Assembly (NCBI GenBank): GCA_012959435.1
Contig: DUDF01000172.1
Span: 1 to 56,903, forward strand
From: Candidatus Poseidoniales archaeon
Lineage (GTDB): Archaea > Thermoplasmatota > Poseidoniia > Poseidoniales > Thalassarchaeaceae
Reading direction: 5' to 3'
DNA length: 56,903 nt
The translations under genes were made by a program, and so were the position numbers. This document shows positions 2,217-17,638 of this stretch, in pieces (position 1 is the stretch's first letter; every line of letters starts with the position of its first letter). Below the pieces are notes generated by a model. It saw nothing but the letters and a program-made list of their open reading frames with translations, ran no database searches and was not told the DNA's origin.

Positions 2217-2322
2217 AGCGACTTTTGAATCGTAATCGGGTCATTTTTGATGCCCCTCGCATAGCGAAGCCTTTTGAGCCTTCTTTGAAAGACACGTTAC
2301 ATCGCAGGGGTATGGGACCGAC

Positions 2323-3066: not shown

Positions 3067-3143
3067 GTAATTCATCCGGTATAATCTGCAACTACCAACG
3101 GTTAGCAGTGTAACTAAAGTCGGACATATCGCTAGAATCTCAA

Positions 3144-3214: not shown

Positions 3215-3292
3215 GTAGCCCGCCGACCGACATCTTAGACTTAACCGCGTCTATGGGAGGCTTGATGTTTAGTAGCCCCCGCACCTCAAATT

Positions 3293-3511
3293 ATGAGAGG
3301 CCGAAACTGGGTTGGAGTCGCTTTCATCTTTCTATTTCTACCCGTGAATGTGCCATTATGGGATATTGTACTTCCAAAACTAGGCATCAATATAATGGCT
3401 GTTTTTATTGTCCCACTATTCTTTTTCCTCGGAATATTGCTCGTCTTCTATCCTAGTAGAGAAGATAGAATCTCCACCATCCCATCAAACCAAGCGAATG
3501 AGGAGGAGTGA
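3293..3511 (+). CDS. Small two-TM membrane protein
   Basis: 72 aa with two hydrophobic segments. Its stop codon overlaps the RBS region (GGAGGAGTGA) of the downstream MFS gene. Confidence 0.7.
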   Translation: MRGRNWVGVAFIFLFLPVNVPLWDIVLPKLGINIMAVFIVPLFFFLGILLVFYPSREDRISTIPSNQANEEE

Positions 3512-3513
3512 AA

Positions 3514-5841
3514 ATGAAGAAAATCATTGTTATCAGCCTCATTTTGATATTGTCAACCCTTGCCTTACCATTGGCTATTGCTCAGGAAGAGGTGCTTCCT
3601 CCTGATGTGGATTATGAACCGGAAATGCGGATGACTAGACTATTCGCATATAGTCAAGATACGCTATCTCCCGAACTCGTTGAGCGGGCCGAGATGTACA
3701 CTCACAATTTCCCCTTGGGTTTCGGTTCTTTTTCATCCGATGGTCCGACTCTTACCACTCCTAGTTTCGTTCGTGATGCTCCAATTGGAAGTGAAGATTG
3801 GAATTTCTCACTTTGGGCAAGTGGTAATGCCCAGGTTGATATTGACCTCTTCCTGTTCATTGATGGCACCGAATTAGACCAAATTAATAGTGGCGGGATT
3901 ACACTTTCTGAAGTAAAACAACGTATTGATTTCACGGGTGGGAATTTACCAGATAACATTTCAATTGACCAAACTCTTTCAATCCGCTGGACTGTCAATA
4001 GCGGCGCTACTCCATTAATAGAGAATAGTGATTGCACAATCCACTGGGGCTCAGCCGAAACTCCAACAAATCTAACAATCTCTGCAGGAATGTATCAAAT
4101 TGATGACCCTTACCTTGAGAATGAAGGTACCCCATTCAGGGGTGATGGAGAGAACTACTCACGCAGTGAATTAGTTTGGGCTGTTCAAGCACGTTGGGCT
4201 CTTGATGAAAACCAACTTGAAAAAGGAACCCTAGTATTACACGCTGATGACGGAGGAAATGAACTCATCATTGAACCGAATGGAGAGGGCATCAAGTCAG
4301 ACAGCGGAATCTACCGCTGGGAAATTGAAGAGTGGGAAGATGGAGTAATCCTCTCAGCCCATGTGATGTGGAATGATTCGTCAGGACTCCACGGAATGAC
4401 AAATCAAGTTATAGAAATGATGGACCCAAAGGGGCCGAGCATCCTATCTAGTGGGCTCAAAACCACATTGTTTTTCCTAACAATACCAGTTCTCATTGGA
4501 GTTGGATTTTGGCTCAAAGGACGATTTGAAACACTTGAGGAGAATGGAAAGGAGTTAGGGCATGGACCAGGTAAAGAAGGTGATTTAAAACGCCTGATTG
4601 TGGCTACTACATTTTTAATTGCTGGAATAAACAATGCACTGATACTCTACAGTTTCCACACACGAGAGTTGGGGGCGTCGGAGGATATCGTAATTCTCCA
4701 CCTTTGTTTACTTGCTTTTGCACTTGGGGCTTTTGGCCCTATTTGGGGTGCAATTGCTGATAAATGGGGCCATCGTAAGCAACTGATGGCATTTGCAATC
4801 ATTGGAGCAAGTTTACTGATGTTAACATTCCCGTTCCTGCCTCTTGAGGGTTATATCCTTGTCTCAGCTTTACAGGTTGCTCTATTCTCAGCCGTGCGCA
4901 TGGGAGTTGCAGTCGGAACAGAATGGTACCCTGAACAAAAGGGTGAGTTCCTTGGAGTGCTGTATGCATTCGCATCCTTTGCAGCAGCAATTGGTTCAAT
5001 GTTGTGCAGTAAATTGTATGTGACTCTATTACCCACTAGCACCACATTTGCGATGCTAGGTATAGTGGGGGTATCAGTTCCCGCCTTACTATTTGGTGCG
5101 TGGATGATATTACAATTTGAAGGTGATGAATTCTCTTGGCCGGTATGGATGTTGAAAGGTGGTAAGAAACCTGATGTGGTTAAGTTAACAATTTCTGAAA
5201 AAATGTCAATGTTCAGAGGCATGCTTCGCTTTGAAAGTAAATGGGCACTTCTCTGTCTCTTAGGAGTAATCTTGGTTGCAATTCCACGTGGTGCTGTTGT
5301 TCTAACTGCCTTGCGTTACCTCGAAGTTGTTGGGTTTGATGTTGACTTCACTGGCTTGTTAGAAGCATGGGCTGTGATTGCTGTCCTAATTTTGTACGCG
5401 GTAATTGGAAAGGTGTGCGATGATCGTGGGCCCCAGACCGTTTTGCTTTGGTCAGCTGCCGCCTATGGTACTCTGTGGTCAATCTTCAGCATCGGCCTTC
5501 CGCCAATGATTGCTGTACTCATCTTTGTGGTCCCAATTTACCCGATGCTGTTGGTGTCAAATGATGCTTTGATGGCAAAATTCACGAACAATGAAGAGAG
5601 GAATCGTGGAATCGGTATGGCCAGCCTTGTTGCTTTCTTAGGCCAATCTATCGGCATACTGGCTGGATTCTTTGCACTTGGGTACCTTATTAGTTCAGGG
5701 AAAACTGACATTATTGCCTACGAAACTTTCTACCGAGCAAATGTGCCTCTTTGGATACTTGCAATTGGTTTCACGTTTTGGCTTGCAAAACGTATTGATG
5801 CCAGTGAGGAGGGTGTAATTGATGCAGAGATTAGCGAGTAA
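3514..5841 (+). CDS. MFS transporter fused to an N-terminal ~300-aa extracellular domain
   Basis: Signal peptide, soluble beta-rich region, then ~12-13 TM helices with MFS motif A twice (GAIADKWGHRK; GKVCDDRGPQ). RBS GGAGGAG. Confidence 0.85.
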   Translation: MKKIIVISLILILSTLALPLAIAQEEVLPPDVDYEPEMRMTRLFAYSQDTLSPELVERAEMYTHNFPLGFGSFSSDGPTLTTPSFVRDAPIGSEDWNFSLWASGNAQVDIDLFLFIDGTELDQINSGGITLSEVKQRIDFTGGNLPDNISIDQTLSIRWTVNSGATPLIENSDCTIHWGSAETPTNLTISAGMYQIDDPYLENEGTPFRGDGENYSRSELVWAVQARWALDENQLEKGTLVLHADDGGNELIIEPNGEGIKSDSGIYRWEIEEWEDGVILSAHVMWNDSSGLHGMTNQVIEMMDPKGPSILSSGLKTTLFFLTIPVLIGVGFWLKGRFETLEENGKELGHGPGKEGDLKRLIVATTFLIAGINNALILYSFHTRELGASEDIVILHLCLLAFALGAFGPIWGAIADKWGHRKQLMAFAIIGASLLMLTFPFLPLEGYILVSALQVALFSAVRMGVAVGTEWYPEQKGEFLGVLYAFASFAAAIGSMLCSKLYVTLLPTSTTFAMLGIVGVSVPALLFGAWMILQFEGDEFSWPVWMLKGGKKPDVVKLTISEKMSMFRGMLRFESKWALLCLLGVILVAIPRGAVVLTALRYLEVVGFDVDFTGLLEAWAVIAVLILYAVIGKVCDDRGPQTVLLWSAAAYGTLWSIFSIGLPPMIAVLIFVVPIYPMLLVSNDALMAKFTNNEERNRGIGMASLVAFLGQSIGILAGFFALGYLISSGKTDIIAYETFYRANVPLWILAIGFTFWLAKRIDASEEGVIDAEISE

Positions 5842-5846
5842 CACTA

Positions 5847-6566
5847 CTACGCTGTATCTGTGATATGGGCTAGAGCCACATTGGTCACCTGACCTGAAAG
5901 AAGTGGTTGCCAGGAATGTATACGATATAATTGAGAATTAATTGTGATTACTTCTTTGTCTAGCACCTCAAAAGATTGTGGTGCAAGACCCATCCCAAGA
6001 CCTGTGGCCTTCTGAATAGCTTCTTTTACAACCCAAACCAAATTGGTTAGTGTGCTTGCTGCACCGGGATTTTGGTCCCATGCTTCCTCAAGTTTAGTCA
6101 ATTCATCTCCTGATGCCATAAGTGGTAACAAATTGCGTTGCCGACCGGAATCAGGTTCAACATCGATTCCCACTGATAACTCAGTTGGAGCAATAATCGC
6201 AATGGCTAGTCCACCACTATGTGTGATAGAGATTGAAAGAGGTTGTGGGCCAATTAAAATTGGTCTCCGGTATTCATTCCTTTTAATTTGATAATCCTTG
6301 ACATCATATCCATTTTGTTGTAGGAGATGGGCGATAAGATACCGACCCGCCGCATGTTCTTCTGCACGTTTTGCAACTTTGAATGACTGAGCCTCAATCG
6401 CATCTACAAAATGGAGATGAGAAATATCTGGTATAGAATCTGATGGAGGGGGGTTGCGTGTCTTCATCCAAACCGCATGAAATTCGCCTTCAACGGTTTC
6501 TGGAAGATTCAACAAAAGAGGGGTTGAAGCCGGTTCCCACATCCCATTCACCAATTGGAAATTCAA
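5847..6566 (-). CDS. 4'-phosphopantetheinyl transferase, Sfp/EntD type
   Basis: Motifs HAAGRYL, YRRP, SISITHS, VGIDVE and WVVKEAIQKATGLG; starts 4 nt after the PKS stop. Confidence 0.92.
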   Translation of the reverse strand: MNFQLVNGMWEPASTPLLLNLPETVEGEFHAVWMKTRNPPPSDSIPDISHLHFVDAIEAQSFKVAKRAEEHAAGRYLIAHLLQQNGYDVKDYQIKRNEYRRPILIGPQPLSISITHSGGLAIAIIAPTELSVGIDVEPDSGRQRNLLPLMASGDELTKLEEAWDQNPGAASTLTNLVWVVKEAIQKATGLGMGLAPQSFEVLDKEVITINSQLYRIHSWQPLLSGQVTNVALAHITDTA

Positions 6567-6570
6567 TTTT

Positions 6571-9500
6571 TCAATTGCGATTCAACGAAAAGGAATCGCT
6601 TTCTGAAATAGGTGCCATGCCCTTCAATCGCAACCCTTTCATAGAAACAACTGGTTTGCCATCCTGGTTCACAACCAAGCAATCGTGAACGGTGACTCCG
6701 TCATCTTCTGCACCTCTCCTCAAAGCGCGCATTCTTAGTGAATCTGTCTTTTCAGGAGTTCTAATCAACTCAAGCATCTCAATTCCTACAGGTAAAGATT
6801 GCAAACCGTCAATTTCCATTGCCACCATTCCAGCGTTCTGGAAACATGCTTCAATCAACATAGGTTGGGATTCTAATGTGACTTCTTCAGAAGAGAATTG
6901 ATTTGTATTTGGTAACTGATGACGTGATAATGCAATGCCGTCCGCACCAAACATCTCATCGATACTACATCCACTCAATATCCCACCATGTGATTGGAAT
7001 CTAGGCCCATGGAAGAATCGCTGGTACACGAAATCTGATCCAAGAACAACACCACCTCTTGAAGGAGTCCCAATTGATGGTAACTTCAACAACCCTCTGC
7101 CAGCATCTTTCTTTAGCATCCTAACTAAACATCTGTGATGTATTCTTGGCTCTCCAAATATCTCTCCAGATTTGTTAATCAAATCTGATTCTAATCTGCA
7201 TTTAACCCACACATTTTCTGAGTTTTGATGTGAGAATTCGGAAACTACTCTCAACTTTTGCTCGGGCTTTAGTAATTTGATTGGCAAACCAAACCTCACC
7301 CCTGCAAATCCTATTACTGAGCATGGAGGCCACAACAATTGTGCACCTTGTGAAAACATTTCAAGAGCCATCACCCCAGGATGATATGGGACATCATCGA
7401 TAGCATGGTCTTCTAAGAATGGGTAACTATTGACATCTATTGTACACTCGTATGATAGTGAGTCGAATGGTTGGTGGGCCACAACTTTGTCTACAAACGG
7501 GAAGCGCTTGGCGTCAGCTAACAACTCTGAAACATCATGTGGTAATCGTTGTGGAGGCTCTCGGTCAGAACCATCATCATTCAGAACTCCAAGACTTCCT
7601 GCAAGGACGACTCTGCGTTTACCGCCTCTCATCACTTCATCAACGAACAGGGAAACTCCCTTCTCAACTGATACGGTCTCAATTCCTGCTTCCTCGAACA
7701 CCCTTTCAATCGAGCCACGGGTTGCCATCCCAACATCTTGCCAACCAGTCCACGCCAAAGCAACAGCGTGAGGTTCTGAATCAGTGTGTGCAAGGCGTGA
7801 CATTTCAGCATCAAGAATACAATTTGCTGCGGCATAATCAACTTGCCCTCCATTGCCAAATCGGCCTGCAATTGATGTAAAAGCACAACAATATCGTAAT
7901 TCTGAGCTATGGTCTTTAACGGCATTAACTAGAGACTGCCAGCCATCAACTTTGACAGACATTACATTGTTGAAGGTATCCCAATCTTTGTCAGCAACCA
8001 TCTTTGAATCTTCAATACCAGCCCCGTGAATTATTCCCGTTATTGGTGAACGCCTCTTCTTCAACTTCTTGATAACCTTTCTAACCTGTTTACTAACTGT
8101 TACATTACAAGCATGATAGGTCGCAGTATTGCCACTTTCCTCTATATCTGAAAGTGTTTTATGAATGTCAATTGAACGCTTAATCTTTGACCATGCCTTT
8201 TCCCAATCAACGATTGTAACTTTGCCAGACTTTGAATCGCCTTGCATCTGGATTCTCAATTCCTTCTTCATTTGCAGTAATGTTTCTTCTGAGGCATCGG
8301 CTAAACTTGATAGAGAACCATCAAGTTTAGTTCGTCCAAGTAATGCAAAGTGGCAACCAATTCCTCGATTCGCTTGTGCTAGGCCAACGATACAGGCAGC
8401 AGTAACCCCTGAGCCGCCCCCAGATACAATGAACACATCATCTGATTTTAGTGACTGCGGCTCAGATTCGTGGGCTTCATCATAAATGCAAACCTGCCAT
8501 CTTCTCCCATCGCCATCAATCCCAAGTTCGCGCGGACCCATGCGCTCTATTTCGCTGAGTATTGTTGATGCCAATTTATCTGCGTCCACCAAGAGTTCAG
8601 GTGCAACATCAATTGCTCTAGCCCGAATGTTTGGCCTCTCTCTCCCAAACGATTTGACTATCCCATGTGCACCAGCACCTAGTGGATTGAATCGATATCC
8701 GCCATTTCCATGTCGGCCATCAAGTGCTGAAATTGAACAAACAATTCCGTCACTACGGTCCGCCAACTTTGCATCTATTTGTTGCAGCACCCCAAATAAA
8801 CCATGGCAAACCATCTGTGTTTGTTGTTGGCTAGTGACCTCGGCCCAAGCAATTCCCGCTAAAGTACAAGGAGCAGTGTGGATAACTCCTACAATATCCA
8901 AATCACTAATGATATCACCAAATTGAGATAGGTGATCTCGATTCCCAGGGTCTAATCTGATAATATCAATCTCACCATCTTTTTCAATTTTAATGTTTGA
9001 AGTGATGCTAGGGTCTAGCATCAACCTAACAGCTTCAGAACCGCTTGATTCAAGTTGCTGGCAGATAGCATTTCCAAGCCCCCAAGAATCATCAGTCACA
9101 ATGATGTATGAACCAGCCATATCAATTGGGTGGGACTCAGATTCATCAGCCTCCTCAACTTCAACTACCCAGCGACGAACTGTACTTTCAACAGAAATTT
9201 GTGGAGATGGTGGTTCAACTACCACTAACTCTGACTTGTCAGGGGCCACTTCTTTTTTCTCCGGTTCAGAATCCACTATCACAACATTATCTGCTGGCTC
9301 ACCCCCACGCATTGAAACAATATAGGATATCATATGAGCAAGAGTTGGGTAATCACGCAATTGGAATGACTCATCTACAGGTAAGGAAAATTGTTCACGG
9401 CAATCAGCCATTATTTCCGCTTGTTTGACTGTATCAATCCCCAATTCACCTTCTAAATCTTGATCCAACTCAAGGAAATCTTCTGGATAACCAGTGTGCC

Positions 9501-12500
9501 TTACAACAATTGATAGGACACCTGACTCGACATCGCTATCGGTATTCTCTAGGTTTGGAGGATTACTCTCCACCGACTGTTCGTCCACAGAACTACTCAG
9601 CACAGGTTGCTCCTCTTGTGGGTTTGCTTGCTCTTCTCTTCCCCCACCCATACTGGCGATGTAACTAATCATGTGATTTAGTGTTGGGTGTTCACGTAAC
9701 TGAAATGAATCATCAACTGGCAAGGAAAATGTCTCCCTTAAATCAGCCATTATTTCTGCCTGCTTTACTGTATCAATTCCTAATTCACCTTCTAGGTCTT
9801 GGTCCAGTTCAATGAAATCAGTAGGGTAACCTGTATGCTTTGCAACAGTTTCTACCACCTTATGAGCAAGTCCTACTGGATGTTCGCCAGCAATTGTTTC
9901 AGTAACAGTTTGACTTACTAGCACAGTAGGGGGGGTCTCTTCAGCGACCGCTTTCACTTCCTCTTTTGGTATCACATCGGGTTGCGATGGGGCTGATTTC
10001 AGAGGCATTGTTGATGGAAGGGTAGAATCGGGTTGTGCATCTTGCTTGGAAACCTGCCAATCACTACCTTCAACGCCACCTATCAATGAATCATCAGGGG
10101 CAATGTATGCAACTAATTTTCGCTTCAATAAGCGTAATTCGACATCATCTCCTGCTTGACGTACTGCCCATTTCTCAACACTTTCTCTATCAACTCTATT
10201 GAGAGTTCTAGCAATTCGTTTGAACATTGTCAGAGCAATTTGACTGCCAAATCCTGCGGCATGACGAAGCATGTATTCAACATCATATTCTCCACCTTCA
10301 GAAAGTCGGAGGTTTCCTAATGCAGGATCTGGTTGTTGGAAGTTAGCAATCGGTGGTAACCGACCTGATGCTAGACCATACAATCCGGTGGCATCTTCAA
10401 CACCAACACCCATCGGATGACCTGTGAATCCCTTGGTATTGGTTATGATTAAACTCTCAGCAGAGTCCTTGAAAGCACCTCTAAGAGATTCAATCTCAGC
10501 AGCAGCCGAACCGCCTCTAGGAGGAGTGAATGGTTCATGTGACATGAAAGTCGTTTTAGGTGCGATCTCATGTCTATCAATTCCCCAACGGTTTTCCATA
10601 TCGGTCACGAACTCATCAAAAGTTGATGCTACATGTGCAACATCTAGCCTTGTAGGATGGTATGCCGAATTTCCGATATGAGCACCTAATAATTCTGCGT
10701 ATGGAACTACTCCCCTCTCATCAGCATGAGTTGATTTCTCAACTACGAAGGCAGCCCCACCCATACCAAGCAACATGCCGTTGCGTCTGACATCAAATGG
10801 TAACGCTACTTCTTCCACTACATTACCCATTGAATGGGCACCTGCAGCAGCAAAACCTGCACCGATCCATTCCATCAAATCGTCACCGGTGGAATCGTCG
10901 CCGCTGATTACAATCACTCTGTCACAGCGACCTGAGTCTAACCAATCCTCAGCGATTGCAAAGGCGGCTGGAGTAGAGGCACATGCGTTATTGATGGCCA
11001 AATTCGGGCCACGCGCCCCAATCCATTGAGCGAACTGTGCGTGCCCCATTGTTAGAATTTGGAGTAAGAATTTTCTATCAAAAGTGCCGTTTTTGTCAGC
11101 CCCATTATTCAGTGCGTGCCGCATGGCCATACCTATGCCAGGGAATACTGAGGCGAAAATCACGCCAGTTCTTTCACGAATTGAGTTGGGAAGATTCCAC
11201 CCTCTTACTAATCTCTTACCAGCACTACTCACCTGTTCGACAGGTAGGAGTGGGAGTGCTGCATCTTTGAGAGCCTCCAATCCAGCAGCAAAAGAAAGAG
11301 TAGTGGAAACATCCATTGCCGCCACTATTTTAGGATCAATCCCATATTGCTCCGCCAAATCAAAGTAGCCACCAACTCCTGCTAGTTGAGGTATGCTAGC
11401 AAAGGATTCACAGGGTAAAAATTCAGCTCTTCCATCAGGATGTTTAACGATTCTAACCATGTTTTTGTCGAGTAAACGCTGTTTGATATCATCGGGTAAT
11501 TCAGTGATGAAATTCTCTCCAGCAATTATTCTCTCTAATGCATCTGGCTCAAATACTTCATTCATCCCAGGAAGCCCAAGGCTTACTCCTGTCACAACAT
11601 AGGGATTGATTCTTCGTTCAGCATGGGGGTCTGAAGAGACTACAACATTTGTTGCACCTTTCACCTTTTGAGAAACTGTGAATCCACTAGGAGGGGCTAT
11701 CACCCACTCGTTTAGGGCTGCTAAGGTTGTTAATTGCTCAGCGTCAGCAGGACCTGAAACTGATGCCTCAGAAGCGATGCTTGCTAGTAAATCAGGTAAT
11801 GTTTCATCAGTAATCCCAAGGGCCAAAAGATGGAGTTCACCTTTGATGAGGCGAGCGGGATAGCCAGTAATATCTGAAATACGGCTTGCAAGGTAACCCT
11901 CTTTGTCAACAACCTGTTGGACCGCATGGTGCCCTCCATCAATCACAATTGTTTGCGATTGGGTATTCTGAGAGGTTGTGGCCATTTGACTATTTGAGGA
12001 ACTTACCGGTAGTGGCCTAGCGCGAACCCTTAATTCTTCCATCTGTTCACTGCTGATTGAAGAAGAATCATCATTAACAATTCCATTTTTCTGCCACACC
12101 TCAATGGGTCCAGCCCTGAATCCTTCAGTGAGGCGGCTTGAATCGACAGAGTACATTGACGGTAATCGTCCTGAAAGTGCGCATACTGCCAGGGAAGAAA
12201 GGAATGATGCTACACCCCCAACCTTTGGGTGGTTTGTGTTGGTAACAACCTTTGATTGTCCATCAAGAATCTGCTCAGCAAAAAGAGATAACGCCCGTTT
12301 TGGTCCAACCTCTATGAATAAGCGTCCACCTCGGCCATACATCTCTTGAATCTGCCCAGTCCATTCTACTGCAGATGACATCTGTGGCGCCAATTGATTT
12401 AGGATTGCATCGTGAACGGTTTCACCATCCCCCAGACTTTCGGGATAGAATTTCCCATCATAGTTGGCAGTGATAGGAATTGAAGGTAATGACAACTCTA

Positions 12501-15060
12501 ATCCTTCGAGGAAACGATGTAGTGGTTCGTTAGCAGGAGCAACAATACGTGAATGGAATGCGTGACTTGTCTGAAGAGTAACGCATGGAATATTCATTTC
12601 TCCAAAGCGTCGAATAATATCTTGCATCGGTTCTGTTTCACCTGCGATGACAGCCATCATCGGAGAATTTTTGTTGGCAGCAATTATGTAACCATCAACC
12701 GAATCAATGACCTCCTGTATTTTCTCAAGTGGTGCAGTGACGCTCGCCATCAACCCCTTGTCCTTTACTTCCACGTTACCCATTTCAGTACCACGGGCAG
12801 CTGCAGCACGCAATGCGTCGTGGAATTTCATGATTCCAGAAACCATCAAGGCAGCGTATTCTCCCAAACTATGGCCAGCAACCATATCAGGATTGATTCC
12901 ATGCTCGCTTAGCAATCTGTAAATTGCTAAATCAGCCGTCAACATTGCTGGTTGGGTGAATTCTGTTTGCTTCAACTTCTCTTCAGCAACTTTGGCCTGC
13001 TCCTCGGTAAGGTTATCGCACAAAACAAACTCAGAAAGTTTTTCACCATCAAGAATTTCAGACATGGTTAAATCCGCTTCATCCCATGTTTCACCAATCA
13101 CTTCGAATCTCTTTGAAAGGTCTAGCGTCATACCAACATATTGACTACCTTGGCCAGGAAACATCTGTACCAATTTTGCATCGGCTGGCAATGCTTCCTC
13201 TTCAGTAATGAAAACCATCTGTTTTGCTAAGAATTCCCATTTTGATGGATCAGAGAGATTATCAGTCAATAAATCCATTCTCTTAGCCAATTGTCCCCAA
13301 TTAGTGGCGACAATACCACAACGAGCACCTTTTGCTTCAAAATCAAATGATAAATCTGAAAGTACTGCTGAGAGTCTGCGGCCTGCTGGGTCGGCATCAA
13401 AGTTTGAAAATGATGATGAAAAGAGAGTTGATTTAACTCGTTCAATTTCTGAGGCTAAAGACTCAATATCATCAGCATTCAGAAGCAATATACCTCCTTC
13501 AATCTCAAGTAATTCTTGATGGCTCATTGAAGGAGTTACAGTTGAATCAAGAACACTTGGAACAATTGGAGTTTGCACTTTAGAAAATGATTGGTCAGAA
13601 AAACTGCGAATGAGGTTTTTGTGGTGCACGGGGTCGTATTGCTCAATAGCACAATGGAAATTTGTCCCACCAAAACCAAACGCAGATACACCTGCTCGTC
13701 TGGGTGCTTTAGATTGTGGAACAGGCCAATCAGAAGATATTGTTGGAACATAAAACGGGATTTCGTCCCAGTTTACTGAAGTATTTGGTTGTTCAAATCC
13801 TGCAGATGGCGGTAAGGTTCTGTGATGAAGCGCTAAACTCGCTTTCAGTAAACCAGCCATCCCAGCAGCTGCTTTAAGGTGGCCAATCTGGCTTTTTACT
13901 GATCCTACTGCAACAAAATCACCAGCGCCACGGTCTGCAAATACCCCAGCAAGAGTTGACAACTCTGTTGCATCTCCAACCTTAGTGCTAGTACCATGGG
14001 CTTCAATTAATTCTACTGAGGACGGAGAATATCCAGCCTGCTGATACGCCCGCATCACTGCCTGCTTTTGACCTCTAGTTGACGGAGCAGTGATTCCTTT
14101 TCCTCTACCATCACTTGATGAACCGATTCCGCGAATAACGCTGTAAATTGTATCACCATCTGCTATGGCGTCCTCTAACCGCTTGAGGACTACACAACCG
14201 GCCCCTTCCCCCATTACAAATCCATTCGCACGTGCATCAAATGGACGGGAATGAAGTGGTGAGAGCGCACCGATAGCACTGAATTTAGCGTATGTCCCAG
14301 GGTCCATGGTCCGATCACTTGCCCCACACAGCATCAAATCGGTTTGACCGGTTTGTAGCATCTGACAAGCAGAGACTAATGCGGCAAAAGTCGACGCACA
14401 AGCAGCATCAGCACTGAAATTTGGTCCTTGTAAGTCAAGCAAGTTGGCCACTCGGCCAGCAACTACATTGGCTAGTTCCCCAGCCATTGTATCTTCATCA
14501 ATACGTGGTGTACCCTCAGTGATTGCATCTTTGAATTGTTCACTACTTGTTGCTGGCATACCAGCTTCAACTGCCTTTCTTGCAATTTGATCTGCGTAAA
14601 CACGCTTACTTGACTGTACTCGATTTTCCCCACCTAAGGCATTAGCGAAAATTACGCCACAACGAGCATTTGGGAGTTGTAAACGACTATTTTCACCTAT
14701 GTAACCAGCATCTTCCAACGCTGCTGCTGAAACCTCAACAGCCCACAATTGGGTATCATCAATTTGAGATAGTGTTCCTGGCGGTTGTTTCCAACGCCTC
14801 CAATCAAACTCAAAATCTTCAACAAAGGCCCCAATCTTAGAGTAGGTTTTGCCTTCTATTGCACTACCTGGCTCACCTTCAACCCAAAAATCGTCTGGGT
14901 TCCACCTATCATGAGGCACTTCACGAATTGCAACTTTAGCATTCAACACATTATCCCAAAATGCGTCAATATCTGGTGCATCTGGTAAAAGAGCGGACTG
15001 ACCTACAATCGCAATCGGTGCGAAAGGTTGTTGGGGGACTTCATCCAGTTGTTCAGTCAT
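6571..15060 (-). CDS. Type I polyketide/fatty-acid megasynthase, PfaA/HglE-like (KS-AT-ACP-like-KS-ACP-ACP-KR-DH)
   Basis: KS1: DAACAS, EAHGTST, KSQIGHLK. AT: FPGQGSQ, GHSLGE, HAFHS. KS2: NNACAS, SHEPFT, KGFTGH. Two ACPs: ELGIDTVKQAEI. KR: GGGSGVT, HGAG, DYAAAN. DH: HAIDDVPYHP and EACFQ. RBS GAGGTGG overlaps the fabI stop. Confidence 0.96.
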   Translation of the reverse strand: MTEQLDEVPQQPFAPIAIVGQSALLPDAPDIDAFWDNVLNAKVAIREVPHDRWNPDDFWVEGEPGSAIEGKTYSKIGAFVEDFEFDWRRWKQPPGTLSQIDDTQLWAVEVSAAALEDAGYIGENSRLQLPNARCGVIFANALGGENRVQSSKRVYADQIARKAVEAGMPATSSEQFKDAITEGTPRIDEDTMAGELANVVAGRVANLLDLQGPNFSADAACASTFAALVSACQMLQTGQTDLMLCGASDRTMDPGTYAKFSAIGALSPLHSRPFDARANGFVMGEGAGCVVLKRLEDAIADGDTIYSVIRGIGSSSDGRGKGITAPSTRGQKQAVMRAYQQAGYSPSSVELIEAHGTSTKVGDATELSTLAGVFADRGAGDFVAVGSVKSQIGHLKAAAGMAGLLKASLALHHRTLPPSAGFEQPNTSVNWDEIPFYVPTISSDWPVPQSKAPRRAGVSAFGFGGTNFHCAIEQYDPVHHKNLIRSFSDQSFSKVQTPIVPSVLDSTVTPSMSHQELLEIEGGILLLNADDIESLASEIERVKSTLFSSSFSNFDADPAGRRLSAVLSDLSFDFEAKGARCGIVATNWGQLAKRMDLLTDNLSDPSKWEFLAKQMVFITEEEALPADAKLVQMFPGQGSQYVGMTLDLSKRFEVIGETWDEADLTMSEILDGEKLSEFVLCDNLTEEQAKVAEEKLKQTEFTQPAMLTADLAIYRLLSEHGINPDMVAGHSLGEYAALMVSGIMKFHDALRAAAARGTEMGNVEVKDKGLMASVTAPLEKIQEVIDSVDGYIIAANKNSPMMAVIAGETEPMQDIIRRFGEMNIPCVTLQTSHAFHSRIVAPANEPLHRFLEGLELSLPSIPITANYDGKFYPESLGDGETVHDAILNQLAPQMSSAVEWTGQIQEMYGRGGRLFIEVGPKRALSLFAEQILDGQSKVVTNTNHPKVGGVASFLSSLAVCALSGRLPSMYSVDSSRLTEGFRAGPIEVWQKNGIVNDDSSSISSEQMEELRVRARPLPVSSSNSQMATTSQNTQSQTIVIDGGHHAVQQVVDKEGYLASRISDITGYPARLIKGELHLLALGITDETLPDLLASIASEASVSGPADAEQLTTLAALNEWVIAPPSGFTVSQKVKGATNVVVSSDPHAERRINPYVVTGVSLGLPGMNEVFEPDALERIIAGENFITELPDDIKQRLLDKNMVRIVKHPDGRAEFLPCESFASIPQLAGVGGYFDLAEQYGIDPKIVAAMDVSTTLSFAAGLEALKDAALPLLPVEQVSSAGKRLVRGWNLPNSIRERTGVIFASVFPGIGMAMRHALNNGADKNGTFDRKFLLQILTMGHAQFAQWIGARGPNLAINNACASTPAAFAIAEDWLDSGRCDRVIVISGDDSTGDDLMEWIGAGFAAAGAHSMGNVVEEVALPFDVRRNGMLLGMGGAAFVVEKSTHADERGVVPYAELLGAHIGNSAYHPTRLDVAHVASTFDEFVTDMENRWGIDRHEIAPKTTFMSHEPFTPPRGGSAAAEIESLRGAFKDSAESLIITNTKGFTGHPMGVGVEDATGLYGLASGRLPPIANFQQPDPALGNLRLSEGGEYDVEYMLRHAAGFGSQIALTMFKRIARTLNRVDRESVEKWAVRQAGDDVELRLLKRKLVAYIAPDDSLIGGVEGSDWQVSKQDAQPDSTLPSTMPLKSAPSQPDVIPKEEVKAVAEETPPTVLVSQTVTETIAGEHPVGLAHKVVETVAKHTGYPTDFIELDQDLEGELGIDTVKQAEIMADLRETFSLPVDDSFQLREHPTLNHMISYIASMGGGREEQANPQEEQPVLSSSVDEQSVESNPPNLENTDSDVESGVLSIVVRHTGYPEDFLELDQDLEGELGIDTVKQAEIMADCREQFSLPVDESFQLRDYPTLAHMISYIVSMRGGEPADNVVIVDSEPEKKEVAPDKSELVVVEPPSPQISVESTVRRWVVEVEEADESESHPIDMAGSYIIVTDDSWGLGNAICQQLESSGSEAVRLMLDPSITSNIKIEKDGEIDIIRLDPGNRDHLSQFGDIISDLDIVGVIHTAPCTLAGIAWAEVTSQQQTQMVCHGLFGVLQQIDAKLADRSDGIVCSISALDGRHGNGGYRFNPLGAGAHGIVKSFGRERPNIRARAIDVAPELLVDADKLASTILSEIERMGPRELGIDGDGRRWQVCIYDEAHESEPQSLKSDDVFIVSGGGSGVTAACIVGLAQANRGIGCHFALLGRTKLDGSLSSLADASEETLLQMKKELRIQMQGDSKSGKVTIVDWEKAWSKIKRSIDIHKTLSDIEESGNTATYHACNVTVSKQVRKVIKKLKKRRSPITGIIHGAGIEDSKMVADKDWDTFNNVMSVKVDGWQSLVNAVKDHSSELRYCCAFTSIAGRFGNGGQVDYAAANCILDAEMSRLAHTDSEPHAVALAWTGWQDVGMATRGSIERVFEEAGIETVSVEKGVSLFVDEVMRGGKRRVVLAGSLGVLNDDGSDREPPQRLPHDVSELLADAKRFPFVDKVVAHQPFDSLSYECTIDVNSYPFLEDHAIDDVPYHPGVMALEMFSQGAQLLWPPCSVIGFAGVRFGLPIKLLKPEQKLRVVSEFSHQNSENVWVKCRLESDLINKSGEIFGEPRIHHRCLVRMLKKDAGRGLLKLPSIGTPSRGGVVLGSDFVYQRFFHGPRFQSHGGILSGCSIDEMFGADGIALSRHQLPNTNQFSSEEVTLESQPMLIEACFQNAGMVAMEIDGLQSLPVGIEMLELIRTPEKTDSLRMRALRRGAEDDGVTVHDCLVVNQDGKPVVSMKGLRLKGMAPISESDSFSLNRN

Positions 15061-15069
15061 ATTACCACC

Positions 15070-15861
15070 TCAATCTGAGATACTGTCTGGTACCATAATG
15101 CTGGAATAACCTGCATCAACATGAATGATTTGTCCTGTTACTCCTGATGACAACGGCGATGATAACCAAGTTGCGCATCCTGCAACATCTTTCTGTGTGA
15201 CATTTCGACGTAATGGTGAGTTTCTCTCAACATGGTCTAAAATATCATCAAATCCAGGGATGCCTCCTGCGGCTAAGGTTTTGATTGGCCCCGATGAAAT
15301 CGCATTCACTCGATGGCCATCTGGGCCAACATGATTTGCAAGTTCGCGAGTCCATGCTTCTAATGCCGCTTTTGCTATACTCATCACCCCGTAGTTTGGA
15401 ACCCACCTAGTTGAGGCAGCATAGGTTAGAGTGATTGTTGATGAGTTAGGGGCAAGATGTGGCAAAGCATAGCGCATTACTCTTTGTAATGAATGAGCAC
15501 TGATTGTCAATGCTGTGTTTATCGGGTCATTTTCCACGAATAACACTGGTCGGTCAAAACATGGGCGCGGAGCAAATCCAATGGCATGAATGACAATATC
15601 CGCTTTTGCACCAGGGTTTGCATTTTGCCATTCTGTGAAAAATTCGGCTGTTAATTCATTGGTTTCAACATCAATTGGGTAAAATGCTTCGATATTATCT
15701 AATTTCTCTTTCAATTGAAATACACGGCTCATAAATCGCTTCTGAAAACCAAGAATTAACTTGCATCCAGCAGCTGATAATTGCTCGCAAATAGCCCATG
15801 CAATGCTTTCTTCGCTAGCCACACCGAATACTAGTGCAGTTTTTCCCTTTAGTTCCAACAT
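15070..15861 (-). CDS. fabI: Enoyl-ACP reductase, FabI-type SDR
   Basis: LVFGVASEESIAWAI, HAIGFAP, catalytic Y-x6-K (YGVMSIAK), ISSGPIKTLAA, TGQIIHVDAG. Probable start at MLELKGK. Confidence 0.92.
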   Translation of the reverse strand: MLELKGKTALVFGVASEESIAWAICEQLSAAGCKLILGFQKRFMSRVFQLKEKLDNIEAFYPIDVETNELTAEFFTEWQNANPGAKADIVIHAIGFAPRPCFDRPVLFVENDPINTALTISAHSLQRVMRYALPHLAPNSSTITLTYAASTRWVPNYGVMSIAKAALEAWTRELANHVGPDGHRVNAISSGPIKTLAAGGIPGFDDILDHVERNSPLRRNVTQKDVAGCATWLSSPLSSGVTGQIIHVDAGYSSIMVPDSISD

Positions 15862-16123
15862 AAAAGCACCTGTTTCTACCAACATCGGTTCGCCGGCGAA
15901 GGCGCCTTCAAGACCTTTGCCTACTCTGTGAGCCAAGAGCGTCATTCACTAGGGGATGTAAGTATCCCAAAAATGTGCCATATGCACACCTATTTGAGTG
16001 CAAATATCAAAATCCCGACCGTAGGTCGGGTTGAAACTCTTGGGAAATAGCAAAAAAACAGAAATTTAACACATCATATTCAAAATAATTCAAATTATGA
16101 TGATATTGATCGATGATATGACT

Positions 16124-17005
16124 TCACTCGTACTCACCATACAAAGCCTCAGGCAGATCAATATGGATTGCACTCAACACGGCTTCTGCATCTAATCCCC
16201 TACCGATTAGAGAGGTTGCAAGAGCTTGGGACCTACGAGGTACGGTCTTTGGACCTAATACTGCACCTGGTCTACGTGGGTCATCCATGTAGTCAGTCTC
16301 CATTAGGAACCCGCCTTCATTTTGCCATATTGTATCAGAAATATCCTTGATTGAGTCACGGCCAACTACTACAGATGAAGTCAAGCCATGGGTGAAATTT
16401 TTACTGATGTCTGCATCTGCGTGGTGGTGAATCGCGCCAAATCTAGGGAACCCTACGTGGTCACAAATCTTAGCAATTTCACGATTAGTTTTCTCACCGT
16501 TTGCGTCGAGATGAAGTTGGGCAGGAACATTTGCCCTTTTACACATTGAAAGCACTTCAATCAAAATCTCATCAGCCTGGTCTAATACTTCATCGCCAAC
16601 ATCCCAGTGAGGCCGCCCCACTTCACCAACCCCTACCGCTAAATTTTCTTCACAGAATTCGATTGCTAATTCGACTGCTTGAAGATGTAATTCATTTGAT
16701 TTTTCAACCCCTAGTGATGCACACTGATGGACCCATGAAGCGGGGTGAGGGCCCAGTACTACCCGAACTCTCAAGTCACATTCCAAGCGAACTTGCTCGG
16801 CCATTGCTACAGTATCTTCGTATGCCTTTCGTACACCCTCTACATTATTTGGGAGGTTATCAAAATCTGGCTTGTGAACTAATACCAAATCAGTACCGCC
16901 AACACGCTGGAAATCGGCCGCTGCATCAAGATAACGCCCAACTCTATCCAAATGGAAATGGTTGTCTAAAATAGGGCCATTCCACTGCCCATCAACAAGA
17001 GTCAT
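16124..17005 (-). CDS. TatD-related metal-dependent hydrolase (archaeal type)
   Basis: DNHFH, GPHP, GEVGRPH, QLH and METDYMDDPRRPGAVLGPKTVP motifs. Confidence 0.88.
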   Translation of the reverse strand: MTLVDGQWNGPILDNHFHLDRVGRYLDAAADFQRVGGTDLVLVHKPDFDNLPNNVEGVRKAYEDTVAMAEQVRLECDLRVRVVLGPHPASWVHQCASLGVEKSNELHLQAVELAIEFCEENLAVGVGEVGRPHWDVGDEVLDQADEILIEVLSMCKRANVPAQLHLDANGEKTNREIAKICDHVGFPRFGAIHHHADADISKNFTHGLTSSVVVGRDSIKDISDTIWQNEGGFLMETDYMDDPRRPGAVLGPKTVPRRSQALATSLIGRGLDAEAVLSAIHIDLPEALYGEYE

Positions 17006-17014
17006 TGAGACACC

Positions 17015-17638
17015 TCACGATTCTTCTTCTTCCTCTACTACTTCAAGCGCGGCTTCTTCAGGCTCTGAATCAACTTTTTCTTCAGTCTCATTAGATTTCA
17101 CTAATACTTCCACGAATAGATTCTCGGAATCAAATCTTGTGCCCCAATGTGTTGCCGCCATCTCAACCAAATTTTTGTGCCTAGCACCAAGTGCAATTCC
17201 AATTCCGTTTGAAAAAAATAGTAAATCCATCTCGTGTAACTCATCACTAATGCGAATGCACTCAAGACGCCCATCAACCTCAAAATCAGGATAATATTCT
17301 GAAACCTGGTCAGTTCTAAGTGGCTGACCATAGTCAAACGAAACTACAAGAGGCCCTTTCTCAGTAGTAATCCCTTCATCGGGCCGGCCTAATCTGAGTA
17401 ACATTTCACGAGCTGCTGCCCAAGCAACCTCTGAATGATTCGTACCGTGTACTACCAGCCTACCTTCTTCGTCGACTAAAAGAGTTGCACGTGGGTTCTT
17501 GAGAGCCAGTATGACATACTTGCCGCTCTTCTTCCCCCCAAGTGAATTAATGACCTCTTCGGCCTCAAATGGTTGAGGGGCTGTGAACCGAACTAATTGG
17601 TTCTCTACCCTAACTTTGACTGCACTTCGACGACCCAT
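17015..17638 (-). CDS. Divergent TATA-box-binding-protein (TBP)-fold protein
   Basis: Two TBP-like half repeats (VRVENQLVRF...NPRATLLVDEEGRLVVHG; LVVSFD...LLFFSNGIGIALGA), ~200 aa, with an acidic C-terminal tail. Confidence 0.65.
   Translation of the reverse strand: MGRRSAVKVRVENQLVRFTAPQPFEAEEVINSLGGKKSGKYVILALKNPRATLLVDEEGRLVVHGTNHSEVAWAAAREMLLRLGRPDEGITTEKGPLVVSFDYGQPLRTDQVSEYYPDFEVDGRLECIRISDELHEMDLLFFSNGIGIALGARHKNLVEMAATHWGTRFDSENLFVEVLVKSNETEEKVDSEPEEAALEVVEEEEES

What the first reader, a model, noticed from the sequence alone, without database searches (positions are those of the whole stretch)
5847..15861. Apparently complete ACP-dependent type I fatty-acid/polyketide synthase operon (fabI + megasynthase + PPTase) in an archaeon
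Seen: three co-oriented genes with gaps of 9 and 4 nt and an archaeal GAGGTG RBS, among archaeal housekeeping genes (PCNA, tRNA, cdc6, MC1). Together they encode KS, malonyl-type AT (HAFH), ACP, KR, DH, a trans-acting FabI enoyl reductase and the PPTase that activates ACPs. Established: archaea make isoprenoid ether lipids and generally lack ACP-based FAS. PfaA-type PUFA synthases normally use PfaB/C (CLF, FabA-type DH) and a flavin ER (PfaD), none of which is in this window. Inference: this is a self-contained iterative synthase for fully reduced acyl chains. It could supply fatty acyl chains for mixed archaeal/bacterial-type lipids, protein acylation or a lipid natural product.
Basis: partly seen in the sequence, partly recalled or inferred. 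Interest (0 to 1): 0.95.

Follow-up and report, generated by a model that had tools for sequence, protein, structure and literature searches.

The report
Archaeal fatty-acid-type megasynthase with threonine carriers
A marine planktonic archaeon carries a real, conserved three-gene operon of bacterial type for building fatty-acyl chains on carrier domains, and those carrier domains have a threonine where all textbook carrier proteins have the cofactor-bearing serine.

Summary
Three co-oriented minus-strand genes, with gaps of 9 and 4 nt, encode a FabI-type enoyl reductase, a 2829-aa megasynthase and an Sfp-type phosphopantetheinyl transferase (PPTase). The host is a Poseidoniales (Marine Group II) archaeon. 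It is not a chimera: the megasynthase was found in 39 of 41 relatives, the gene order is intact in 24 of 26 loci, and contigs from four public runs bridge both borders.

The domain order is KS-MAT-KS2-ACP-ACP-KR-DH. This matches the uncharacterised bacterial "Type R secondary lipid synthase" of Shulse and Allen (2011), here with fabI added. No PfaD, FabA/FabZ or free ACP was found in five 93-97% complete relatives, so the unit looks self-contained. Its most likely product is saturated acyl chains.

It is accessory. Synthase, FabI and PPTase were not found in six small-genome sister genera that keep PlsC-type acyltransferases.

The unexpected finding is in the carrier domains. Both ACPs, and nearly all ACPs of this family in bacteria and archaea, carry Thr at the phosphopantetheine site: 361 Thr, 23 Ser, no other residue. 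My literature searches found no description of this. No product, expression or cofactor attachment was tested.

The parts
15070..15861 (-). fabI-type enoyl-ACP reductase, the trans-acting ER. The longest ORF reaches 15945; the likely start is M29 at 15861. Catalytic Tyr175, Tyr185 and Lys192 (numbering of the 291-aa ORF).
   Evidence: PF13561, 220.5 bits. The best NCBIfam FabI model scores 226 bits, below its cut-off of 391. Orthologs align from residue 24-29 onward. The Tyr/Tyr/Lys positions are kept in 27 of 27 orthologs.
6571..15060 (-). 2829-aa iterative type I megasynthase with domain order KS1-MAT-KS2-ACP-ACP-KR-DH, a Type R-like PfaA homolog.
13621..15018 (-). KS1, residues 15-480, with Cys221, His355 and His394.
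   Evidence: PF00109 plus PF02801. The triad motifs are kept in 25 of 25 orthologs.
12172..13164 (-). Malonyl-type acyltransferase, residues 633-963, with GHS731LGE, Arg756 and H833AFH.
   Evidence: PF00698, 119.5 bits; TIGR00128 fabD, 184.7 bits, below its cut-off. The motifs are kept in 25 of 25 orthologs. Reading HAFH as malonyl-specific is recalled knowledge.
10111..11613 (-). KS2, residues about 1150-1650. This is the second, FabF-like ketosynthase, the 'CLF' of Shulse and Allen. It has an intact Cys1360, His1508 and His1548.
   Evidence: PF00109, 52.5 bits. The best PDB sequence matches are FabF enzymes, E = 2e-23. The triad is invariant in 112 of 112 family sequences.
9658..9861 (-). 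ACP1 (PP-binding). The attachment position is Thr1764, codon ACA at 9769-9771.
   Evidence: PF00550. The Thr aligns with the Ser of the PigH and actinorhodin ACPs.
9319..9519 (-). ACP2 (PP-binding). The attachment position is Thr1877, codon ACA at 9430-9432.
7621..9183 (-). Ketoreductase region, residues about 1960-2480. The catalytic part is 2299-2442, with GGGSG at 2214 and Tyr2409.
   Evidence: PF08659, 102.6 bits. The motifs are conserved.
6622..7494 (-). PKS-type double-hotdog dehydratase, residues 2523-2813, with His2552 in an H-x8-P motif.
   Evidence: PF14765, 40.1 bits. PF21089 scores 26 bits, just under its cut-off of 27. The motif is conserved.
5847..6566 (-). Sfp-type 4'-phosphopantetheinyl transferase. 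The start is TTG at 6566 or ATG at 6542. Motifs G-I-D-V-E and W-x-x-K-E-A-x-x-K.
   Evidence: PF01648, 37.5 bits, and PF17837, 35.2 bits. Both motifs are kept in 25 of 25 orthologs. The complex model places it on ACP1.
16124..17005 (-). TatD-family hydrolase gene upstream, in the same orientation. It is a conserved neighbour. Whether it belongs to the unit is not shown.
   Evidence: PF01026. A homolog lies on the fabI side in 27 of 27 loci, with one further gene between in family f3.

Best explanation
This is a functional operon of bacterial type, inherited within Poseidoniales (Marine Group II archaea). It encodes an ACP-dependent, iterative type I fatty-acid/polyketide-type synthase of the 'Type R secondary lipid synthase' family, together with the two helpers it needs.

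Inferred mechanism.
1. The co-encoded Sfp-type PPTase loads 4'-phosphopantetheine onto the two tandem ACP domains. Here, and in almost the whole family, the acceptor is a threonine (Thr1764, Thr1877), not the canonical serine.
2. The malonyl-type AT loads malonyl units.
3. Two catalytically intact ketosynthases (KS1 and KS2) elongate the chain. They probably act as an intramolecular KS/KS pair.
4. KR and the C-terminal DH reduce and dehydrate each beta-keto group.
5. The separately encoded FabI reduces the enoyl-ACP in trans.
6. The product is most likely a saturated, straight acyl chain carried on the synthase's own ACPs.
7. Release is not encoded in the operon. The likeliest route is transfer by a PlsC-family acyltransferase encoded elsewhere.

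The system is accessory: several small-genome sister genera lack all three genes.

Shown here: gene and domain content, conservation of catalytic residues, synteny, joint presence or absence of the three genes, lack of other carrier proteins, PfaD and FabA/FabZ, and the Thr/Ser-only pattern.

Inferred only: attachment of the cofactor to Thr, chain saturation and length, the release route and the physiological role.
For: Identity of the genes. Catalytic motifs of KS1, AT, KS2, KR and DH are kept in 25 of 25 orthologs. The KS2 triad is invariant in 112 of 112 sequences. FabI Tyr/Tyr/Lys is kept in 27 of 27, and the PPTase motifs in 25 of 25.

Real and conserved. The megasynthase was found in 39 of 41 relatives, and in 17 of 17 that are at least 90% complete. 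The order fabI-synthase-PPTase is intact in 24 of 26 other loci; one is cut by a contig end and one is frameshifted. Contigs of four runs from four studies bridge both borders with even depth.

Self-contained. PP-binding domains occur only inside the synthase, in the window's own genome and in five genomes 93-97% complete, one of them a single contig. PfaD was found in 0 of 5. FabA/FabZ was found in 0 of 5, and not in the window's own genome.

Functional unit. Among 61 genomes of the family at least 85% complete, FabI is in 20 and PF01648 in 18. Both lie in the same seven genera. Neither was found in the 40 genomes of the six other genera. The synthase was not found in the sampled genomes of five of those six genera. 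In other Thermoplasmatota the PPTase is fused to the synthase in 8 of 16 loci, and FabI is adjacent in 2.

Family. An Elusimicrobium minutum MAG has the same Pfam architecture followed by a PPTase. This matches the Type R description in PMC3098273.

Thr as acceptor. Thr aligns with the Ser of solved ACPs. Thr fills every ACP in 24 of 25 orthologs; the other ortholog has Ser in both ACPs. In the top 150 representatives the position holds T 361 times, S 23 times and nothing else. Ser and Thr ACPs are mixed within single proteins. The PPTase/ACP1 model scores 0.94 against a best control of 0.00. That mark was reached by 58 of 80 solved complexes and 2 of 110 mismatched pairs. The three runs agree in at least 93% of contacts, and the partner pLDDT is at least 85. 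ACP residues 44-46 (Asp-Thr-Val) touch PPTase E129, W170 and E174. PPTase-carrier complexes have been solved, so this pass may reflect likeness only.

Substrate supply and candidate release. Carboxyltransferase genes are in 61 of 61 genomes, and a biotin carboxylase lies in the window. PlsC-family genes are in 61 of 61. Orthologs of one 562-aa PlsC-like protein (G000 contig C44) occur only in six of the seven synthase-bearing genera.
Against: - No product, expression or cofactor attachment was measured.
- No thioesterase or other release domain lies in the operon.
- All FabI equivalog models of NCBIfam score below their cut-offs (best 226 against 391). The reductase's substrate is therefore inferred from family and position only.
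- In bacterial and Heimdall hosts of the family, FabI is not linked. It was found at E <= 1e-20 in 1 of 5 genomes, about 430 kb away. So the core synthase need not make saturated chains.
- I recall, from no call, that a Ser-to-Thr change in E. coli ACP blocks modification by AcpS. If right, Thr would be a poor acceptor for ordinary PPTases.
- The co-loss pattern may reflect one or a few loss events in related, streamlined genera, because kin are not independent.
- The PlsC-like co-occurrence fails in genus g13: 0 of 5 have the ortholog, although 4 of 5 have FabI.
Confidence: 0.62

Rival explanations
1. It is the primary membrane fatty-acid synthase. The operon supplies the bulk acyl chains for bacterial-type or mixed (ester/ether, G3P-based) membranes of MGII archaea, as the 'lipid divide' literature has speculated.
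For: Papers citing Villanueva et al. 2017 state that MGII lack G1P dehydrogenase, and have G3P dehydrogenase, PlsC homologs and a putative fatty-acid pathway (PMC6962369, PMC7852524 and PMC6461757, passages read). PlsC-family genes are in 61 of 61 family genomes. No other KS/ACP system was found.
Against: Synthase, FabI and PPTase were not found in six genera of the same family. That covers 40 genomes at least 85% complete for FabI and PPTase, among them a single-contig genome (G209, 91% complete). These genera still keep PlsC-family genes. A bulk membrane pathway should not be dispensable unless those genera take up fatty acids.
Confidence: 0.15
2. It makes a specialised, not fully reduced lipid. 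As in other PfaA-like 'secondary lipid' systems, the product would be a hydroxylated, unsaturated or very-long-chain lipid or hydrocarbon precursor. FabI would act only in some cycles, or serve another pathway.
For: The family belongs to the PfaA-like 'secondary lipid synthases', whose characterised types make PUFAs, heterocyst glycolipids and phenolic lipids (PMC3098273, passages read). The tandem ACPs and two ketosynthases resemble PUFA synthases. The system is dispensable. FabI is unlinked in most bacterial hosts tested.
Against: fabI is separated from the megasynthase start by only 9 nt, with the GAGGTG ribosome-binding site overlapping its stop codon. It was found or not found in the same genera of the family as the PPTase. 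No FabA-type isomerising dehydratase was found, so cis double bonds of the PUFA type are unlikely.
Confidence: 0.18
3. It supplies octanoyl-ACP for lipoate synthesis. Like mitochondrial FAS, the synthase would exist mainly to feed LipB/LipA.
For: A LipB homolog above the TIGR00214 cut-off is present in the window's own genome (G000 contig C31). It is also in 60 of 61 family genomes.
Against: LipB is retained in all six genera in which no synthase, PPTase or carrier protein was found. LipB therefore does not depend on this ACP. A 2829-aa synthase with tandem ACPs is also out of proportion to a cofactor-scale need.
Confidence: 0.03
4. It is an assembly or binning artefact: a bacterial PKS fragment joined to an archaeal contig.
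For: The gene family is mostly bacterial. The genome bin has 3.86% estimated contamination.
Against: The GC content is flat. The megasynthase was found in 39 of 41 relatives, including a one-contig genome, and the three-gene order is intact in 24 of 26 loci examined. Within the order the KS2 tree follows the families. Independent contigs from four runs bridge both borders, with no joints.
Confidence: 0.01

Closest known systems
'Type R' secondary lipid synthase cluster (Shulse and Allen 2011, PLoS One 6:e20146; PMC3098273, passages read)
   Same: A single PfaA homolog with KS-MAT-'CLF'-ACP(n)-KR is followed by a PPTase gene. The window protein matches the Elusimicrobium minutum MAG protein along its length: residues 15-958 and 1325-1931 at 41-42% identity, and 2110-2809 at 27%. 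The two have the same Pfam domains. The KS2 domain and the GIDTVKQAE carrier motif are shared.
   Different: The host is archaeal. A fabI gene lies 9 nt upstream of the synthase, with the ribosome-binding site overlapping its stop codon. There are 2-4 ACPs instead of 3-6. I find a C-terminal PKS-type DH that the paper's formula does not list. The 'CLF' has a complete Cys-His-His triad (112 of 112), so it is a ketosynthase and not a chain-length factor in the strict sense. The product of Type R was uncharacterised in that paper.
PfaA of the bacterial omega-3 PUFA synthase (NCBIfam TIGR02813)
   Same: It is the best-scoring NCBIfam model (855 bits). The order KS-MAT-tandem ACP-KR-DH and the use of an Sfp/PfaE-type PPTase are the same.
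   Different: The score is below the curated cut-off of 1010.1. An extra KS2 sits between MAT and the ACPs. No PfaD, and no PfaC-type FabA dehydratases, were found. The enoyl reductase is a FabI-type SDR, not a flavin enzyme. The ACPs carry Thr, not Ser.
Bacterial type II FabI enoyl-ACP reductase
   Same: The SDR fold (PF13561) is present. The Tyr-x9-Tyr-x6-Lys catalytic pattern is kept in 27 of 27 orthologs.
   Different: All NCBIfam FabI equivalog models score below their cut-offs. It works, by inference, on ACP domains of a megasynthase and not on a free AcpP.
Sfp/PfaE/EntD-type 4'-phosphopantetheinyl transferases
   Same: The two-domain PPTase is present (PF17837 plus PF01648). The Mg-binding and catalytic Glu motifs are kept. 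It lies next to its carrier-bearing synthase, and is fused to it in other Thermoplasmatota and in Heimdallarchaeum.
   Different: Its inferred acceptor residue is Thr. It matches named NCBIfam PPTases only weakly (at most 23 bits).
Proposed ACP-independent fatty-acid synthesis of archaea (Lombard et al. 2012 and Dibrova et al. 2014; seen only as citations within PMC7852524; content recalled)
   Same: The host domain is the same. The same question is addressed: how archaea could make fatty acids.
   Different: That proposal works without ACP and with thiolase-type condensation. The present system is fully ACP- and PPTase-dependent and of bacterial type.

Membership tests
Type R secondary lipid synthase (Shulse and Allen 2011) | One PfaA homolog with domain order KS-MAT-CLF-ACP(n)-KR. 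| tested here: met
   Pfam on the whole protein and on segments gives KS, AT, a second KS-like domain, two PP-binding domains and KR, plus DH. An Elusimicrobium minutum MAG protein has the same layout.
Type R secondary lipid synthase (Shulse and Allen 2011) | A PPTase gene directly downstream. | tested here: met
   PF01648/PF17837 gene 4 nt after the synthase stop. It is kept in 24 of 26 loci of relatives.
Type R secondary lipid synthase (Shulse and Allen 2011) | The proximal KS groups with the Type R clade in the authors' KS tree. | not tested
   I built a tree of the KS2 domain only. There the Poseidoniales rows sit among Elusimicrobiota, Acidobacteriota, Chloroflexota and other carriers of the family.
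PfaA / Pfa PUFA synthase | Score at or above the TIGR02813 curated cut-off. | tested here: not met
   855 bits against 1010.1.
PfaA / Pfa PUFA synthase | Partner genes pfaB, pfaC (KS-CLF plus FabA-type DH) and pfaD in the genome. | tested here: not met
   TIGR02814 was found in 0 of 5 genomes 93-97% complete. PF07977 was found in 0 of 5 and not in the window's own genome. PF03060 gave only two short, weak matches in the window's own genome. PfaB was not searched by its own model.
Acyl carrier protein (PF00550, PP-binding) | Domain match above the Pfam cut-off. | tested here: met
   65.2 bits in two stretches. The genome search gave 39.1 and 31.6 bits.
Acyl carrier protein (PF00550, PP-binding) | A conserved Ser at the start of helix II as the 4'-phosphopantetheine attachment site. 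| tested here: not met
   Thr1764 and Thr1877 align with the Ser of the PigH and actinorhodin ACPs. Family-wide the position holds T 361 times and S 23 times.
FabI enoyl-ACP reductase | SDR fold with the catalytic Tyr, Tyr and Lys. | tested here: met
   PF13561, 220.5 bits. Tyr175, Tyr185 and Lys192 are kept in 27 of 27 orthologs.
FabI enoyl-ACP reductase | Score above an NCBIfam FabI equivalog cut-off. | tested here: not met
   The best model, PRK07370, scores 226.3 against 391.
Sfp-type PPTase | Two-domain PPTase with the G-x-D-x-E and W/F-x-x-K-E-x-x-x-K motifs. | tested here: met
   PF17837 plus PF01648 are above their cut-offs. The motifs are kept in 25 of 25 orthologs.

The most novel reading that the evidence does not exclude
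The whole Type R megasynthase family, including the enzyme of the abundant marine Poseidoniales archaea, attaches 4'-phosphopantetheine to a threonine instead of the otherwise universal serine. A dedicated PPTase, co-encoded or fused, is adapted to this acceptor. In Poseidoniales the unit, with FabI recruited into the operon, is a complete ACP-dependent fatty-acid synthase in an archaeon that has no other carrier protein.
Probability: 0.6. Interest if true: 0.85.

Novelty: new variant of a known kind. Interest (0 to 1): 0.72.

Why it matters
Two open questions become testable with three genes.

1. The lipid divide. Poseidoniales are among the most abundant planktonic archaea, they are uncultured, and their lipids are unknown. 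They lack G1P dehydrogenase according to Rinke et al. (PMC6461757). A defined, self-contained, ACP-dependent acyl-chain synthase tells lipid chemists what to express and which products to look for. Its absence from some genera offers natural controls.

2. Carrier-protein chemistry. Every textbook ACP or PCP carries its cofactor on a serine. A large family, spread over many bacterial phyla and at least two archaeal phyla, has Thr there: 361 of 384 domains in the sample. This would either extend PPTase chemistry to threonine or reveal something unexpected about how these domains work. It also matters for annotation and genome mining, because serine-based motif rules would call these ACPs inactive.

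Tried and rejected
Chimera or contamination: rejected (see the rival explanations).

Standard Pfa system with partners elsewhere: rejected for PfaD and FabA-type DH. PfaB was not searched with its own model.

Expression: the look-up of sequencing runs listed no RNA holder, so nothing can be said on expression.

Lipoate-supply idea: the LipB profile does not follow the synthase.

Malonyl-CoA supply as a co-varying trait: carboxyltransferase genes are in 61 of 61 genomes, so this is uninformative.

Downstream MFS gene (3508-5841) as part of the unit: it is a neighbour only within family f1, in 10 loci, and has no informative family match.

Linkers at residues 480-640 and 970-1160: no Pfam family.

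Independent transfer into Poseidoniales versus other Thermoplasmatota. The quick KS2 tree has 87 of 112 rows; 25 near-duplicate Poseidoniales rows were dropped. It uses LG+G4 with SH-aLRT support only and is unrooted. It puts Poseidoniales (support 100) next to three Myxococcota/Pseudomonadota MAGs (support 97), apart from the other Thermoplasmatota clades. However, an AU test of one all-Thermoplasmatota clade gave p = 0.073, which is not a rejection, and the group was named after the tree had been seen. So no donor and no number of transfers is claimed. In that tree I wrongly grouped row L066 (a Promineifilum record, Chloroflexota) with 'other Thermoplasmatota'.

Literature. In the held library I found no paper that describes a PKS/PUFA-type megasynthase in Poseidoniales or Thermoplasmatota. 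I found none that describes Thr-type ACPs (and a check of one preprint). Villanueva et al. 2017 is not held and may describe these genes.

Full report
WHAT IS THERE. On the minus strand lie three ORFs: 15070-15945, 6571-15060 and 5847-6566. The first is a FabI-type SDR (PF13561, 220.5 bits). Orthologs align only from residue 24-29 onward. The second is a 2829-aa megasynthase. The third is a two-domain Sfp-type PPTase (PF17837 plus PF01648). The fabI stop TGA is followed by 9 nt and then the megasynthase ATG, with GAGGTG overlapping the stop. The megasynthase stop is followed by 4 nt and a TTG; an ATG eight codons further on is an alternative start. The 178 nt upstream of the longest fabI ORF are non-coding.

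DOMAINS. Pfam on the whole protein and on segments gives the following.
- KS1, residues 15-480.
- Malonyl-type AT, residues 633-963, with GHS731LGE, Arg756 and HAFH.
- A second KS-like domain, about residues 1150-1650. PF00109 scores 52.5 bits. The best PDB sequence matches are FabF enzymes, E = 2e-23.
- Two PP-binding domains.
- KR, catalytic part 2299-2442.
- A PKS-type DH, residues 2523-2813.

Two linkers (480-640 and 970-1160) match nothing. All catalytic motifs are kept in 25 of 25 full-length orthologs. They include a complete Cys1360-His1508-His1548 triad in KS2, which is invariant in 112 of 112 family sequences from archaea and bacteria.

HOST AND REALITY OF THE LOCUS. The window is a whole contig of a 2.22-Mb bin with 203 contigs, 77% complete and 3.9% contaminated. 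PCNA, tRNA-Gly and Cdc6 are on the contig. The megasynthase was found in 39 of 41 relatives, including 17 of 17 that are at least 90% complete, three families and one single-contig genome. The order fabI-synthase-PPTase is intact in 24 of 26 other loci. L008 ends at a contig end, and L020 has broken frames. Records returned by a motif scan are titled Candidatus Poseidoniales, Poseidoniaceae or Poseidonia. Their KS2 domains fall inside the clade of the window's order-mates. The host is therefore a Poseidoniales (Marine Group II) archaeon. Eight public runs from five studies hold at least 95% of the sampled words. Logan contigs of four runs from four studies cover all 30 bins evenly and bridge both borders, for example 3964-8000, 4153-6757 and 14714-17619. 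No joints were reported. GC content is flat. Chimerism is excluded for practical purposes.

IS IT SELF-CONTAINED? In the window's own genome the only PP-binding matches are the two in the synthase. The same holds in five relatives 93-97% complete, where all 13 matches lie in the synthase ORFs. PF00109 finds KS1, KS2 and two short matches (33 and 46 profile positions) in ORFs of 435 and 394 aa. Those ORFs were not examined further; their sizes are typical of thiolases. PfaD (TIGR02814) was found in 0 of 5 genomes. FabA/FabZ (PF07977) was found in 0 of 5 and not in the window's own genome. PF03060 gave only two short, weak matches. KS, AT, ACP, KR, DH, ER and PPTase activities are thus all supplied by this operon, and no other carrier, KS, PfaD-type ER or FabA/FabZ system was found among the families searched. 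No release enzyme is encoded in it.

WHAT FAMILY IS IT? The best NCBIfam model is PfaA, at 855 bits, below its cut-off of 1010. A search of 1.84 billion cluster representatives with KS2 plus the ACPs gave 955 proteins at E <= 1e-30. Most of the top 150 are 2000-4000 aa, with KS2 at about residue 1200-1500. The few that carry names are called 'Euryarchaeota archaeon', 'bacterium' or 'Polyangiaceae bacterium'. Apart from Poseidoniales, these lie in Elusimicrobiota, Acidobacteriota, Chloroflexota, Actinomycetota, Myxococcota, Gemmatimonadota, Rhodothermota and others, and in Heimdallarchaeum.

Shulse and Allen (PMC3098273, passages read) describe a 'Type R' secondary lipid synthase. It is one pfaA homolog with KS-MAT-CLF-ACP(3-6)-KR plus a downstream PPTase. 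They report it in Koribacter, Solibacter, Elusimicrobium minutum and Roseiflexus, with the product unknown. An E. minutum MAG has a 2898-aa protein with the same Pfam domains as the window protein, four ACPs and the C-terminal DH. It is followed by a PPTase and a carboxyltransferase gene. The window operon is therefore an archaeal Type R system with fabI added.

DISTRIBUTION. In a sample of 301 genomes of the phylum, 107 have the KS2-ACP region. The counts are 42 of 42 in family f3, 9 of 21 in the window's family f1 and 0 of 8 in the sister family f4 of the same class. Several other Thermoplasmatota families have it at 40-50% identity: f10 9 of 9, f19 23 of 24, f28 6 of 6 and f29 10 of 10. In 16 loci of those other families the PPTase is fused to the synthase C-terminus in 8, and FabI is adjacent in 2. 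In Heimdallarchaeum a Type R-like synthase with a fused PPTase follows a protein that combines a PfaD-like NMO domain with KS and AT. An alpha/beta-hydrolase and a biotin carrier protein come next. Of five bacterial or Heimdall hosts, three have FabZ. Only one has a FabI-like gene at E <= 1e-20, about 430 kb from the synthase. Different lineages thus pair the core synthase with different reductases, and the FabI linkage is a feature of the archaeal lineages.

A UNIT THAT IS PRESENT OR NOT FOUND TOGETHER. Among 61 genomes of family f1 at least 85% complete, FabI is in 20 and PF01648 in 18. Both are in the same seven genera. Neither was found in six genera: g4, g12, g14, g15, g16 and g140, 0 of 40 genomes. 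The synthase query found nothing in g12, g14, g15 and g16 (0 of 12) or in g4 (0 of 1). Genus g140 was not searched with the synthase. These genera have 1.2-1.7 Mb genomes, one of them a single contig. Because kin are not independent, this may be one or a few loss events. It does show that the system is dispensable.

Other profiles. PlsC-family acyltransferases are in 61 of 61 genomes. Carboxyltransferases are in 61 of 61. LipB is in 60 of 61. None of these follows the synthase. Orthologs of one 562-aa PlsC-like membrane protein (G000 contig C44) occur only in six of the seven synthase-bearing genera. The exceptions are g13 (0 of 5) and one of four g5 genomes. In the synthase-less genera only 25-32% identical paralogs appear. 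This is a weak lead to the off-loading enzyme.

THE THREONINE. HMMER aligns the GIDT of both ACPs with the GIDS/VDS of the PigH and actinorhodin ACPs. The residues are Thr1764 and Thr1877, both with codon ACA. In 24 of 25 full-length Poseidoniales orthologs, every one of the 2-4 ACPs reads LGIDTV(K/R)QAEI(M/L). One genus reads LGIDSIKQAEIM in both copies.

Of the 150 best representatives, 123 have only Thr, 4 only Ser and 1 both; 22 had no motif match. With the position left free, it holds T 361 times, S 23 times and no other residue. The loci were selected by the Thr motif and are not counted as evidence here. Some proteins have Ser in the first ACP and Thr in the rest.

A position that tolerates only the two hydroxyl residues, next to an invariant Asp, in domains that are the only carriers in the genome, is best read as a functional attachment site that is normally threonine. 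The accompanying PPTase, adjacent or even fused, fits that reading.

A model of the PPTase with ACP1 (CoA and Mg riding along) scored 0.94 against a best control of 0.00. That mark was reached by 58 of 80 solved complexes and 2 of 110 mismatched pairs. The three runs agree in at least 93% of contacts, and the partner pLDDT is at least 85. ACP Asp44-Thr45-Val46 touch PPTase Glu129, Trp170 and Glu174, counted from M9. PPTase-carrier complexes have been solved, so this pass may only reflect likeness, and it cannot show chemistry. The Shulse and Allen text does not contain the word threonine. Four literature searches found no description of Thr-type ACPs.

ORIGIN. In a quick, unrooted KS2 tree Poseidoniales form one clade (support 100), and its inner branching follows the families. 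The clade sits next to three Myxococcota/Pseudomonadota MAGs (support 97) and apart from the other Thermoplasmatota. An AU test does not reject a single Thermoplasmatota clade (p = 0.073). I therefore claim inheritance within the order, and a family that is mostly bacterial. I claim no donor and no number of transfers.

VERDICT. Three qualifications apply. The system belongs to a known but uncharacterised bacterial family. The fatty-acid potential of MGII has been noted before. The operon is accessory, not essential. The new elements are the defined fabI/Type R/PPTase operon as the only carrier-dependent system of these archaea, the intact second ketosynthase, and the near-universal threonine at the carrier site. 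Nothing here was tested biochemically.

Noticed in passing
G000 contig C31, 2424-2933, and 60 of 61 genomes of family f1: A LipB homolog (octanoyl-ACP:protein octanoyltransferase) above the TIGR00214 cut-off is kept even in the six genera where no carrier protein, PPTase or synthase was found. What donates the octanoyl group there is unexplained.
   Followed up: partly
window 3143-3214: Contigs of four public runs end in unlike sequence exactly at the borders of tRNA-Gly(TCC), and two runs share the same alternative sequence. Strains differ on one side of the tRNA, so this may be an island or integration junction.
   Followed up: no
L175 (Heimdallarchaeum aukensis record), 116-13839: An Asgard archaeon has a related cluster: a protein combining a PfaD-like NMO domain with KS and AT, then a Type R-like synthase with a fused PPTase, then an alpha/beta-hydrolase and a biotin carrier protein. 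Its ACP motifs are two Ser and one Thr.
   Followed up: partly
L148-L163 (other Thermoplasmatota): The PPTase is fused to the C-terminus of the megasynthase in 8 of 16 loci. In three loci the first ACP has Ser and the following ones Thr.
   Followed up: partly
G359 (Anaerolinea MAG behind L036): It has the Type R synthase, but no FabA/FabZ (PF07977) match and no FabI-like match at E <= 1e-20. The synthase might be its main fatty-acid synthase. Genome completeness is unknown.
   Followed up: no
window 29903-31264 (-) and 31290-32624 (-): A biotin carboxylase, which is a possible source of malonyl-CoA, lies next to a reductase with FAD_binding_1 and NAD_binding_1 domains, 15 kb from the operon.
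   Followed up: no
window 19668-25565 (-), 38238-40889 (-), 28078-29883 (+): Large ORFs of 1965, 883 and 601 aa have no Pfam family at E <= 1e-5. The 1748-aa ORF at 46878-52124 has PA14 and Laminin_G_3 domains, which suggests a surface protein.
   Followed up: no
window 16124-17005 (-): A TatD-family hydrolase gene is a conserved neighbour on the fabI side in 27 of 27 loci across three families. Any link to the synthase is unknown.
   Followed up: partly
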